DNA from: a virus
Lineage: Duplodnaviria; Heunggongvirae; Uroviricota; Caudoviricetes
DNA: 64,000 bases
Reading direction: 5' to 3' (one strand)
Virus record (IMG/VR): IMGVR_UViG_2639762884_000001
In this document: piece by piece, positions 28,312 to 29,086 of the stretch
Numbering within the stretch: the stretch's first letter is position 1
Layout of the letters: each line of letters starts with the position of its first letter
Translations under genes and position numbers: made by a program
Notes under the pieces: generated by a model
Told to the model about the DNA's origin: nothing
Database searches by the model: none
What the model saw: the letters and a program-made list of their open reading frames with translations, nothing else

Positions 28312-29086
28312 AAACATCATGATAAGTATTTACTTACTTATCTTTTATGTATAAGATGACTTTGTTTTCGTTGAGACGCGACTGTTTGAACTTAAATACA
28401 AGTGCAAACGAAGAAGTCTATCTGGCAGTAGCCTAATAAGCCAAACACCAGCGAGGTCAGTTTCCAGCCTCGTTACCGAAATGGGACACACTGAGCGAGT
28501 GTGATTGCAGAACGCAGGAGGGAACATTCATGTTCCCTCCGATGAAGTAACAGAATGGGCGGTTGGTATATTTTCAACTCCATATGACTCCCGGATTCTT
28601 AGCCACTGACCGCCCATCCTGTTACGTCATTTTGTTCAATTATGTCGTTTATACTGGGTTAAAAAGCGGCGACGTAGCCCGGCTGGTATGGTTAGCCAGC
28701 ACACAACGTTGAGGCCATTACATTTTTATCAATTCTAAGGTTCTATTCACAGAGATACCGGCGAGCGTTGATATGTAACATGTTGGGCAAACATTCAATC
28801 GGAGTAGTGGCCTCAACGTTGTGAAGACAGGATTGTTGTGTAGGTTTAACCACTGTTGCCATTGGTGCCTGTTTTCACAACAAATGATTCCATACATCAC
28901 ATTGTATAAATTACAAAGTAGGTGCTGTCCTCAAAAACATCATCTACTTAAAGATTTTGCCTACTATTGAGCGAAGTCGAAAGCGTCTGGCACTAACGAA
29001 AAGTGCAAGTAGCGGTGCGTTTCCTGGCAGAAACTAAACCGTCGCGATTGGCACTGTTGAGTAATAAATACTGGCAGTGTCGAATT

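What the first reader, a model, noticed from the sequence alone, without database searches (positions are those of the whole stretch)
28320..29086. Highly structured 770-bp non-coding region upstream of the tRNA cluster (possible stable ncRNA)
No credible ORF, but dense local and long-range complementarity: a perfect 10-bp hairpin at 28517-28540 (ggagggaaca-ttca-tgttccctcc) that buries a Shine-Dalgarno-like GGAGG and a 6-codon mini-ORF (MFPPMK); arms aacagaatgggcgg (28549-28562) and ccgcccatcctgtt (28610-28623); a 14-bp inverted repeat caacgttgaggcca (28706-28719) / tggcctcaacgttg (28808-28821) about 90 nt apart; ttgttgtg / cacaacaa near 28837-28884. T-even phages encode small stable RNAs of unknown function beside their tRNA genes; this may be an analogous RNA or a degenerate intron/tRNA remnant.
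Basis: seen in the sequence. Interest (0 to 1): 0.5.

Follow-up and report, generated by a model that had tools for sequence, protein, structure and literature searches.

The report
Phage RNA that rewires tmRNA tagging
This "non-coding" stretch encodes a large structured phage RNA that copies the message part of the bacterial ribosome-rescue RNA (tmRNA) but lacks its tRNA part. The copy follows a segment complementary to the host's own tmRNA, so many enterobacterial phages probably dock onto host tmRNA and swap the degradation tag it writes.

Summary
On 12 homologues that are 70-76% identical, 100 proposed pairs are 89% paired, against 35-45% in slid controls, and 27 pairs carry compensatory changes.

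The region is not an anonymous stable RNA. Window 28404-28439 reads GCA AAC GAA GAA GTC TAT CTG GCA GTA GCC TAA TAA (ANEEVYLAVA**), a tmRNA-type tag reading frame:
- It has no start codon.
- A is invariant at -4.
- It is followed by a helix-5 equivalent and covarying pseudoknots.
- The peptide is conserved through synonymous changes, and all three stop codons occur at codon 11.

No tRNA-like domain exists. Instead, the RNA's 5' end (28364-28385), placed just downstream of a conserved promoter, is antisense to host tmRNA nt 84-104. That target includes U85/A86, the resume codon and codons 3-5.

The element is unannotated. It occurs in at least 653 phage genomes (Felix O1-like, Ackermannviridae, Schitoviridae, Drexlerviridae, lambdoid, SSU5-like phage-plasmids) and about 5% of E. 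coli genomes.

Best explanation, inferred and not shown: the RNA docks on host tmRNA and substitutes its own tag template. Main rival: a pure anti-tmRNA antisense inhibitor.

The parts
28329..28357 (+). Promoter: -35 TTTACT (28329-34), 17-nt spacer, -10 TAAGAT (28352-57). The predicted start is about 28362-28365.
   Evidence: Both hexamers and the spacing are conserved in homologues that are 70% identical (-10 is TAAGAT, TATGAT or TATAGT). Unrelated promoters sit at the same distance from GUUUUCG in three other contexts: Felix-like (TTGACA-N17-TAAGAT), Erwinia phages (TTGACA-N17-TAATCT) and L008-type phages. The generic scan did not flag it because it matches only 8 of 12 positions.
28364..28373 (+). 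Antisense arm 1, GUUUUCGUUG, complementary to E. coli tmRNA nt 95-104 (codons 2-5 of the host tag).
   Evidence: RNAduplex results. GUUUUCG is invariant in 120 of 122 elements.
28378..28385 (+). Antisense arm 2, GCGACUGU, complementary to tmRNA nt 84-91 (U85, A86 and G90-C91 of the resume codon).
   Evidence: GCGA.U is invariant in group A.
28386..28403 (+). A/U-rich linker with a weak hairpin, plus the resume context ACAAGU (A at -4).
   Evidence: A at -4 is invariant in 122 elements. ARAGORN recognises the resume consensus in L106.
28404..28439 (+). tmRNA-type tag reading frame: GCA resume codon, ANEEVYLAVA, then TAA TAA.
   Evidence: The frame is always 10 codons. Synonymous variants occur at N2, A8, V9 and A10 and at L7 (CTG/TTG). 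TAA, TAG and TGA all occur at codon 11. There is no AUG/SD.
28422..28451 (+). Helix-5 equivalent (CUGG / CCAG) enclosing the end of the tag and the stop codons.
   Evidence: 100% paired. CUGA/UCAG is the compensatory variant in Pollock.
28452..28486 (+). Pseudoknot PKa: stem CGAGG/CCUCG, with loop UUCCA pairing to UGGGA.
   Evidence: Both stems covary within group A and across families.
28487..28503 (+). Hairpin CACACU/AGUGUG, equivalent to stem 1 of the second pseudoknot in other families.
28517..28540 (+).
   Evidence: 8 of 10 pairs have changes on both sides.
28541..28631 (+). 24-bp interrupted helix (5+7+12 bp) with a variable apical region.
   Evidence: 99.3% paired, 5 pairs with double changes.
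28642..28700 (+). Third pseudoknot (AUGUCGUU/GGCGACGU and GGGUU/AGCCC) plus hairpin GCUGG/CCAGC.
   Evidence: These are mostly invariant pairs, so the support is weaker.
28702..28878 (+). Two long-range helices sharing GUUGUG: 28702-17/28808-23 and 28821-31/28868-78.
   Evidence: GAGGCC/GGCCUC, GAGACC/GGUCUC, GAGAUC/GAUCUC; alignment.
28884..29086 (+). Conserved 15-mer ATGATTCCATACATC, then a structured 3' region running into tRNA-Asn. The RNase P site at 29086/29087 probably defines the 3' end.
29087..29644 (+). Co-transcribed tRNAs Asn, Tyr, Thr and Ser, with a tRNA-like element at 29411-29554.

Best explanation
Window ~28364 to 29086 encodes a phage RNA derived from tmRNA. It retains the mRNA-like domain: the resume context, a 10-codon tag frame, a helix-5 equivalent and pseudoknots. 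It has lost the tRNA-like domain.

**Proposed mechanism**
1. The RNA's 5' end is an antisense copy of the host tmRNA segment around the resume codon.
2. The RNA, transcribed from its own sigma-70 promoter and cut from the downstream tRNAs by RNase P, anneals through arms 28364-73 and 28378-85 to host tmRNA nt 95-104 and 84-91.
3. This masks the host frame-setting nucleotides (U85/A86), the resume codon and codons 3-5.
4. The RNA leaves the duplex next to host PK1 carrying its own A-rich context and resume codon.
5. Host Ala-tmRNA/SmpB still rescues the stalled ribosome, but translation resumes on the phage template. Rescued proteins then end in AANEEVYLAVA instead of AANDENYALAA.

**Shown here**
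- The family exists.
- Its structure is conserved.
- The tag is under peptide-level selection.
- There is no tRNA-like domain.
- The 5' end is complementary to host tmRNA.

**Inferred**
- Hybrid formation.
- Template use.
- The consequence of the changed tag, where the positions equivalent to the ClpX determinants L-A-A become A-V-A or M-A-A.
For: 1. **Tag frame under coding selection.** When loci were retrieved independently of the tag sequence, every family member found (the other pattern matches were chance hits with no tag region) had 10 codons followed by a stop. Variable sites by codon position were 2/5/8. Synonymous codons occur at N2, A8, V9 and A10, and at L7 (CTG/TTG) in the Cronobacter phage; TAA, TAG and TGA all occur at codon 11.
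2. **No conventional start.** In groups B/C there is an in-frame UAG at -24. The AUGs upstream in the window lie inside the promoter.
3. **tmRNA-like features.** A at -4 is invariant in 122 elements, and A86 is the frame-setting base in E. coli (PMC2481249). ARAGORN accepts the resume consensus. Rfam tmRNA models align only to the message and pseudoknot part: RF00023 positions 56-294 of 374, 11-19 bits.
4. **Structure.** The helix-5 equivalent and the pseudoknots covary across 22 sequences from 6 phage groups. 92.7% of cells are paired against 30-43% in slid controls, and 14 pairs have double changes against 2-7.
5. **No tRNA-like domain.** ARAGORN and Rfam find none in the window or in related loci.
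6. **Antisense 5' region.** Duplex energy with E. coli tmRNA is -23.7 kcal/mol for the window and -33 to -41 for the lambdoid-type members. Shuffles give -15 to -24 (z -2.1 to -6.9). The best site on the whole tmRNA is nt 83-105. Only 3 of 6398 window 26-mers do as well.
7. **Own message is spared.** The same 5' regions pair far worse with their own message part (-10 to -26), and a cis helix shows no compensatory change. The arms are invariant while the phage's own codons 3-6 vary.
8. **Start site placement.** Four unrelated promoter contexts all start the RNA within a few nt of GUUUUCG.
9. **Target conservation.** The target is identical in K. pneumoniae ssrA.
Against: - No expression, binding or tagging data exist.
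- The phage tags still look like ssrA-type degrons, and some end in MAA, so the benefit of swapping is unclear.
- In the lambdoid-type members the predicted duplex is about 40 bp. It would unfold host PK1 and might simply trigger RNase III cleavage, which fits inhibition better than template use.
- The hybrid would not close the tmRNA ring covalently.
- The window-type duplex is only 8+10 bp.
- Covariation between phage arms and host tmRNA could not be tested, because the host ssrA sequences of Erwinia, Salmonella and Cronobacter were not obtained (one search failed).
- Some loci carry tRNA-like elements nearby that could serve as a phage acceptor piece.
Confidence: 0.45

Rival explanations
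1. Pure anti-tmRNA antisense RNA. The 5' arms bind host tmRNA and block it or trigger its cleavage, shutting down tagging or trans-translation during infection or lysogeny. The message-like part is not a template. It acts as a decoy or scaffold, for example for SmpB, S1 or RNase R, or only stabilises the RNA.
For: The complementarity is strong and conserved. The roughly 40-bp duplex of the lambdoid-type members resembles an RNase III substrate. Phage DS6A has a tRNA-like-domain-only RNA, and a similar molecule strongly inhibited tmRNA in E. coli; that is the precedent for phage interference with tmRNA (PMC4131195, PMC11915505).
Against: It does not explain the peptide-level conservation of a 10-codon frame, with synonymous changes and all three stop codons at codon 11. 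It also does not explain the invariant A at -4, or why the phage copy differs from the host exactly where the arms bind.
Confidence: 0.25
2. Coding piece of a phage-autonomous two-piece tmRNA. The acceptor piece would be a phage tRNA-like RNA encoded nearby, for example window 29411-29554 or the CCA-ended tRNA-like RNA next to the element in PhiSH19. The antisense similarity would be an evolutionary leftover.
For: tRNA-like elements with an acceptor-type stem and a T-like hairpin occur in 23 loci. In PhiSH19 one has a UUCGACU loop and ends in U-CCA. Natural two-piece tmRNAs exist.
Against: - Felix O1-like phages and the L017/L024-type phage-plasmids keep the element without any such partner.
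- These elements have no G3:U70, no conserved CCA, and no complementarity to the element's ends.
- The arms are under purifying selection, so they are not decaying.
- RF04321 hits are at most 30 bits and borrow a genuine tRNA-Ile.
Confidence: 0.1
3. Non-functional or merely structural sequence: a captured and rearranged fragment of host ssrA that persists as spacer or processing scaffold in phage tRNA operons.
For: It always lies in tRNA regions, which are rich in pseudo-tRNA debris and mosaic joints. Rfam scores are far below threshold.
Against: It is conserved in at least 653 phage genomes of unrelated families, with covarying helices, invariant arms and a codon-wise conserved frame. In several lineages it has its own promoter.
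Confidence: 0.1
4. One reading: an anonymous stable RNA analogous to T4 species 1/2 RNA, or a degenerate intron or tRNA remnant.
For: It lies beside tRNA genes and has dense structure.
Against: It has no similarity to T4 rnaC/rnaD and no intron or tRNA model match. This view also ignores the tag frame and the antisense arms.
Confidence: 0.05

Closest known systems
Bacterial tmRNA (SsrA; Rfam RF00023)
   Same: Both have a GCA resume codon with an A-rich upstream context and A at -4. Both have a 10-codon AN(D/E)..-type tag ending in small hydrophobic residues plus stop codons, a helix 5 around the stop, and a string of H-type pseudoknots.
   Different: The phage RNA has no tRNA-like domain: no acceptor stem, no G3:U70, no T arm and no CCA. 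It has no PK1. In their place is a 5' segment antisense to tmRNA itself. The tag ends LAVA or LMAA instead of ALAA. Rfam scores are 11-19 bits against thresholds of 47-84.
Two-piece (permuted) tmRNAs of alpha-proteobacteria, cyanobacteria and some beta-proteobacteria (RF01849-51, RF04321)
   Same: The message part and the acceptor part lie on separate RNA molecules held together by base pairing.
   Different: In two-piece tmRNAs, both pieces come from one gene and pair through the acceptor stem and helix 2. In the phage case, the proposed partner is the intact tmRNA of another genome, the host's. The join is an antisense duplex over the partner's own resume region.
Mycobacteriophage DS6A tRNA-like-domain-only tmRNA, and the complete tmRNAs of Bxz1-like, Streptomyces and Bacillus G phages
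   Same: These are phage-encoded tmRNA derivatives that act on trans-translation.
   Different: DS6A keeps only the tRNA-like domain, so the present element is its mirror image. The other phages carry complete, self-sufficient tmRNAs (PMC4131195, PMC11915505).
Prophage anti-sRNAs AgvB and AsxR of EHEC
   Same: They are phage or prophage RNAs that base-pair with a core host RNA to change its output. In lambdoid phages they lie downstream of PR' (PMC4104026).
   Different: Those are short Hfq-dependent sponges for GcvB and FnrS. They carry no reading frame and do not target tmRNA.
T4 species 1 and 2 stable RNAs (rnaC, rnaD)
   Same: They are stable RNAs encoded next to phage tRNA genes and released by tRNA-processing enzymes.
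   Different: There is no sequence or structural similarity, and they have no tag frame and no antisense arms.

Membership tests
tmRNA (one-piece, RF00023) | tRNA-like domain: 7-bp acceptor stem with G3:U70, T arm, 3' CCA | tested here: not met
   ARAGORN finds no tmRNA in the window or in L001-L003. An Rfam E-value scan of the whole window finds only a 17-bit match to the message part. The primary transcript starts at GUUUUCG, so there is no 5' acceptor strand.
tmRNA (one-piece, RF00023) | Resume codon without a start codon, upstream A-rich context, short tag frame ending in stop(s) | tested here: met
   28404-28439. A at -4 is invariant. ARAGORN reports a resume consensus. Selection is codon-wise.
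tmRNA (one-piece, RF00023) | Helix 5 enclosing the stop codon, followed by pseudoknots | tested here: met
   Covariation on A2 and A1.
tmRNA (one-piece, RF00023) | PK1 immediately upstream of the resume codon | tested here: not met
   The upstream 40-60 nt are the reverse complement of host tmRNA nt ~66-107, not a pseudoknot.
tmRNA (one-piece, RF00023) | Score at or above the Rfam gathering threshold | tested here: not met
   11-19 bits against 47-84.
tmRNA (one-piece, RF00023) | Alanylation and SmpB binding | not testable with these tools
   Needs biochemistry.
Two-piece / permuted tmRNA (RF04321, RF01849-51) | Acceptor piece encoded upstream of the coding piece, pairing with its 5' end | tested here: not met
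   RF04321 hits are at most 30 bits (threshold 47) and use a genuine tRNA-Ile. The ARAGORN 'permuted' call in L106 is assembled from pieces of unrelated tRNAs.
Trans-acting antisense / anti-sRNA | Conserved extended complementarity to a defined host RNA, exceeding chance | tested here: met
   z -2.1 to -6.9, with 0/300 shuffles reaching the observed value for lambdoid-type members. The site is the single-stranded message region of tmRNA.
Trans-acting antisense / anti-sRNA | Physical interaction with the target in vivo or in vitro | not testable with these tools
   Needs EMSA, RIL-seq or CLASH.

The most novel reading that the evidence does not exclude
A parasite-encoded RNA forms an inter-genomic hybrid with host tmRNA and replaces its template. 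Phages, and the phage-plasmids or prophages carried by about 5% of E. coli strains, would then rewrite the C-terminal tag added to every rescued protein. That would change which adaptors and proteases (SspB, ClpXP, ClpAP, Lon) see these proteins. It would be the first natural case of trans-template swapping in trans-translation, and a new form of lysogenic conversion acting on protein quality control.
Probability: 0.4. Interest if true: 0.95.

Novelty: new variant of a known kind. Interest (0 to 1): 0.85.

Why it matters
tmRNA is universal in bacteria, and its architecture (tRNA part plus message part) is considered fixed. The only known phage versions are complete copies or a tRNA-part-only inhibitor.

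Here a widespread, unannotated RNA family keeps only the message part and adds an antisense handle for the host molecule. NCBI's PGAP annotation pipeline and the curated tmRNA databases miss it, and ARAGORN occasionally mislabels it as 'ssrA'.

If the template-swap model holds, three things follow:
- Phages can reprogram ribosome rescue and degron tagging.
- This may explain old observations that lambda-P22 hybrids and Mu depend on tmRNA.
- It gives a natural design for retargeting tmRNA tags.

Even if the RNA is only an inhibitor, it would be the first natural antisense RNA against tmRNA. Either way, several hundred phage genomes need a new gene annotation.

Tried and rejected
- **First IMG/VR pattern.** The spacing was off by one and it found nothing. 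It was corrected.
- **Host co-variation test.** I scanned genome contigs for the target predicted from the Erwinia-phage arm (AAAATAGRRGCAAAYGA). It returned 120 chance hits, and only one was a tmRNA, which was unrelated.
- **Cis pairing of arm 1 with the phage's own codons 2-4.** 81% of cells are paired, but only through shared AACGA. There are no compensatory changes, so I rejected it as the conserved partner.
- **Second docking site.** A conserved 3' hairpin loop in Felix-like phages (..CUAAGAGAG..) could pair with tmRNA PK2, but only over 6 bp. I did not pursue it.
- **T4 rnaC/rnaD.** They are unrelated.
- **BLAST of E. coli ssrA against phages.** It finds attP fragments and true phage tmRNAs but not this family, because the similarity is too short for word size 11.
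- **Whole-window background against full-length tmRNA.** This timed out. I repeated it on the 70-nt target.
- **Literature searches.** No description of this element was found. Two genome announcements repeat an ARAGORN 'ssrA' call for Felix O1-like phages.

Full report
**Context.** The window is an SSU5-like phage-plasmid, 99% identical to Escherichia phage Cyrano over 28312-29086.
- Upstream lie an ATP-dependent DNA ligase (26178-27500) and small membrane-protein genes.
- Downstream lie tRNA-Asn, -Tyr, -Thr and -Ser (29087-29644).
- The four ORFs of 49-60 aa inside 28320-29086 match no PHROG family.

**Checking the observation.**
One 2-nt coordinate slip affects the 5' arm of the 14-bp repeat.
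- Homologues that are 70-76% identical over the whole 770 nt exist in other SSU5-like elements.
- On an alignment of 12 non-redundant homologues (A1), a 100-pair structure is 89.3% paired, against 35-45% for slid partners. It has 27 pairs with changes on both sides against 0-9, and 0 of 500 shuffles reach these values.
- The 10-bp hairpin keeps its structure while its sequence changes freely: 8 of 10 pairs show double changes. The GGAGG and the MFPPMK mini-ORF are therefore incidental.
- The 14-bp repeat is a covarying long-range helix.
- The proposed ttgttgtg / cacaacaa pair is not conserved. The conserved pair there is 28821-31 / 28868-78.
- The 3' 200 nt are also conserved and structured.

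**What the region is.**
- A BLAST of the region hit 317 phage records. Outside the SSU5 group, only window 28352-28506 matched, and it matched unrelated phages: Felix O1-like, HK620 and Klebsiella siphophages. All hits were unannotated.
- That segment reads GCA AAC GAA GAA GTC TAT CTG GCA GTA GCC TAA TAA, which is ANEEVYLAVA**. The E. coli tmRNA tag is ANDENYALAA.
Their tags were ANEEMYLAVA, ANDNQYLAVA, ANDEQFLAVA, ANDNVFLAVA, ANEDTYLAVA and others.
- Erwinia, Pollock and Cronobacter phages add ANDAQFLAVA, ANDDVVLMAA and ANDDLMLMAA.
- A second scan, anchored downstream of the tag and so blind to it, gave the same picture for the family members it returned (some pattern matches were chance hits outside the family):
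  - The frame is always 10 codons followed by a stop.
  - Variable sites by codon position are 2/5/8.
  - Synonymous codons occur at N2, A8, V9 and A10, and CTG/TTG at L7 in the Cronobacter phage.
  - TAA, TAG and TGA all occur at codon 11.
- There is no AUG/GUG with an SD. Groups B/C have an in-frame UAG at -24, and the window's upstream AUGs lie in the promoter.
- The base at -4 is A in all 122 elements. That position corresponds to A86, the main frame-setting nucleotide of E. coli tmRNA (PMC2481249).
- Downstream, a helix encloses the stop codons, and two pseudoknots follow. On 22 sequences from six phage groups, 92.7% of cells pair against 30-43% in slid controls, and 14 pairs show double changes against 2-7.
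- Rfam tmRNA models align only to this message-plus-pseudoknot part, for example RF00023 positions 56-294 of 374. Scores are 11-19 bits, far below threshold.

**What is missing.**
- No tRNA-like domain is found by ARAGORN or Rfam in the window, including a permissive scan of all 64 kb, or in related loci.
- ARAGORN did call a 'permuted tmRNA' in one Felix-like locus. That call stitches the tag to fragments of unrelated tRNA genes.
- Such stitched calls probably explain statements in two genome announcements that Felix O1-like phages encode 'ssrA' (PMC4319497, PMC4392139).
- The curated tmRNA surveys list phage tmRNAs only for actinophages, Bacillus phage G and the tRNA-like-domain-only DS6A (PMC4131195, PMC11915505).

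**The 5' end.**
- In the window, -35 TTTACT, a 17-nt spacer and -10 TAAGAT (28329-28357) are conserved in divergent homologues, where the -10 is TATGAT or TATAGT. They place the start at about 28364.
- Unrelated promoters in Felix-like, Erwinia and siphophage contexts also start the RNA within a few nt of an invariant GUUUUCG.
- This 5' region is the reverse complement of host tmRNA around its resume codon.
- Using ssrA taken from an E. coli genome, window 28364-73 pairs with tmRNA 95-104, and 28378-85 pairs with 84-91. The energy is -23.7 kcal/mol, this is the best site on the whole tmRNA, and only 3 of 6398 window 26-mers reach that energy.
- In lambdoid-type members the complementarity extends to tmRNA nt ~66-107, with -33 to -41 kcal/mol and 0 of 300 shuffles reaching that value.
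- The same regions pair poorly with their own message part, at -10 to -26.
- A cis helix shows no compensation.
- The arms bind exactly where the host and phage message parts differ: upstream of the resume codon and at codons 3-5. They skip the shared GCAAAC.
- K. pneumoniae ssrA is identical in nt 61-131.

**Distribution.**
- A Felix-type query finds 653 phage records. They include Ounavirinae (with Erwinia phages), Ackermannviridae, Schitoviridae, Drexlerviridae, P22-like and other siphophages, and an Aeromonas phage.
- In E. coli, 258 of 5426 complete genomes match the window type, almost all on plasmids. A lambdoid-type (HK620) query matches 350 genomes. It gives 141 chromosomal places, i.e. 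prophage copies, and also weakly picks up the plasmid copies. PGAP annotates nothing at these sites.
- The element always lies in tRNA regions. In HK620 it sits between PR'/qut and the late terminator tQ, which suggests expression in lysogens.

**Mechanism.**
- The combination of a translated, start-less tag frame, the absence of an acceptor domain, and a selected antisense handle for host tmRNA is most simply explained by a host-phage two-piece tmRNA.
- In that model the arms mask the host U85/A86 and resume codon. The phage strand leaves the duplex beside host PK1 with its own A-rich context and resume codon about 18 nt away, compared with 11 nt in the host.
- My own knowledge, not tested here: PK1 of E. 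coli tmRNA can be replaced by a simple hairpin, and natural two-piece tmRNAs function.
- With the alanine carried by tmRNA, the product would be AANEEVYLAVA, the same length as AANDENYALAA. The SspB-type N-terminal part is retained. The positions that are L9-A10-A11 (the ClpX determinants, from my own knowledge) become A-V-A, or M-A-A in some phages.
- I rate this model at 0.45.
- The main rival, at 0.25, is a pure antisense inhibitor. The long duplex in lambdoid-type members favours it, but it does not explain the coding constraints.
- A phage-autonomous two-piece tmRNA (0.1) is disfavoured, because Felix-like phages and some phage-plasmids keep the element without any tRNA-like partner.

**Limits.**
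- Everything about expression, hybrid formation and tagging is inference.
- The host-phage covariation test failed for lack of host ssrA sequences.

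Noticed in passing
window 27872-27886 (+), 28884-28898 (+), 31587-31601 (+), 31603-31617 (-), 37634-37648 (-): The 15-mer ATGATTCCATACATC occurs 5 times with at most 2 mismatches, where 0.15 is expected. One copy is the start of a 50-aa membrane-protein gene (MIPYI...). One copy is invariant in all SSU5-like homologues of the RNA region, including the most divergent. Two copies form an inverted pair. It is possibly an operator or other protein-binding site.
   Followed up: partly
window 29338-29557 (between tRNA-Thr and tRNA-Ser); also L001 ~2705-2830 and 21 other loci: A conserved tRNA-like element has this order: 9-bp acceptor-type stem GUUGUGGUG/CACCACAAC, hairpin GCGCA-GGCUGA-UGCGC, a variable insert, and a T-like hairpin GCCGG-AGAUCAGCA-CCGGC. 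It has no G3:U70 and no conserved CCA (HK620 has G-CCA). ARAGORN and Rfam do not call it. Its function is unknown.
   Followed up: partly
L001 2390-2440 and 2628-2735; L003, L007 etc.; window 29338-29410 and 28513-28546: Repeated 'cargo' modules have the form CACAAC-A-GGUAAGAGCAUU[variable insert]AGUGCUCUUUCC-GUUGUG. The long stem is conserved while the insert ranges from a tetraloop to tRNA-like pieces with GGUUCGAAUCC T-loops. They look like RNase III/RNase P processing scaffolds or recombination joints of phage tRNA regions.
   Followed up: no
window 28702-28708, 28876-28882, 29338-29343, 29548-29554: There are several CACAAC(A) motifs, which is the consensus target of the GcvB R1 seed used by the prophage anti-sRNA AgvB (PMC4104026). 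Here they are predicted to pair with internal GUUGUG segments. A sponge role was not tested.
   Followed up: no
window 29646-29830: A conserved long hairpin (CACAGCGUUGAGCGGU...ACCGCUCAACGCUGUG) follows the last tRNA. Two intrinsic-terminator-like hairpins come next (..UAGCAACACUUUUUUUU and GGGGCUUCGGCCCCUUUUU) and close the RNA/tRNA operon. The generic scan did not flag them.
   Followed up: partly
L129 (Salmonella phage PhiSH19) ~735-870: Directly after the tmRNA-like element lies an uncalled tRNA-like RNA. It has acceptor GCCGUU/AACGGC, a long inserted arm, a canonical T-loop UUCGACU, discriminator U and an encoded CCA.
   Followed up: no
L251 (phage T4) 2909-3047, minus strand (rnaC): T4 species 1 RNA has a 3' tRNA-like domain (acceptor ACGGAACG/CGUUUCGU, T arm CCGGGUUCGAAUCCCGG) preceded by UAAUAA. 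It is unrelated to the present element.
   Followed up: partly
L106 (Felix O1-like UViG) and literature: ARAGORN reports a 'permuted tmRNA' by combining the tag frame with halves of unrelated tRNA genes. The 'ssrA' entries in some Felix O1-like genome papers are probably this kind of composite call.
   Followed up: yes
window 10509-10674 and 10719-10882 (-): Two tandem weak matches to the Salmonella sRNA family isrG score 21-23 bits against a threshold of 100, with E 0.05-0.16. They are probably chance or a repeated structured element.
   Followed up: no
window 29557-29644: The tRNA-Ser(UGA) scores 46.6 bits on the tRNA-Sec model, whose threshold is 47, rather than on the general tRNA model. 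ARAGORN calls it Ser. The long variable arm explains this.
   Followed up: no
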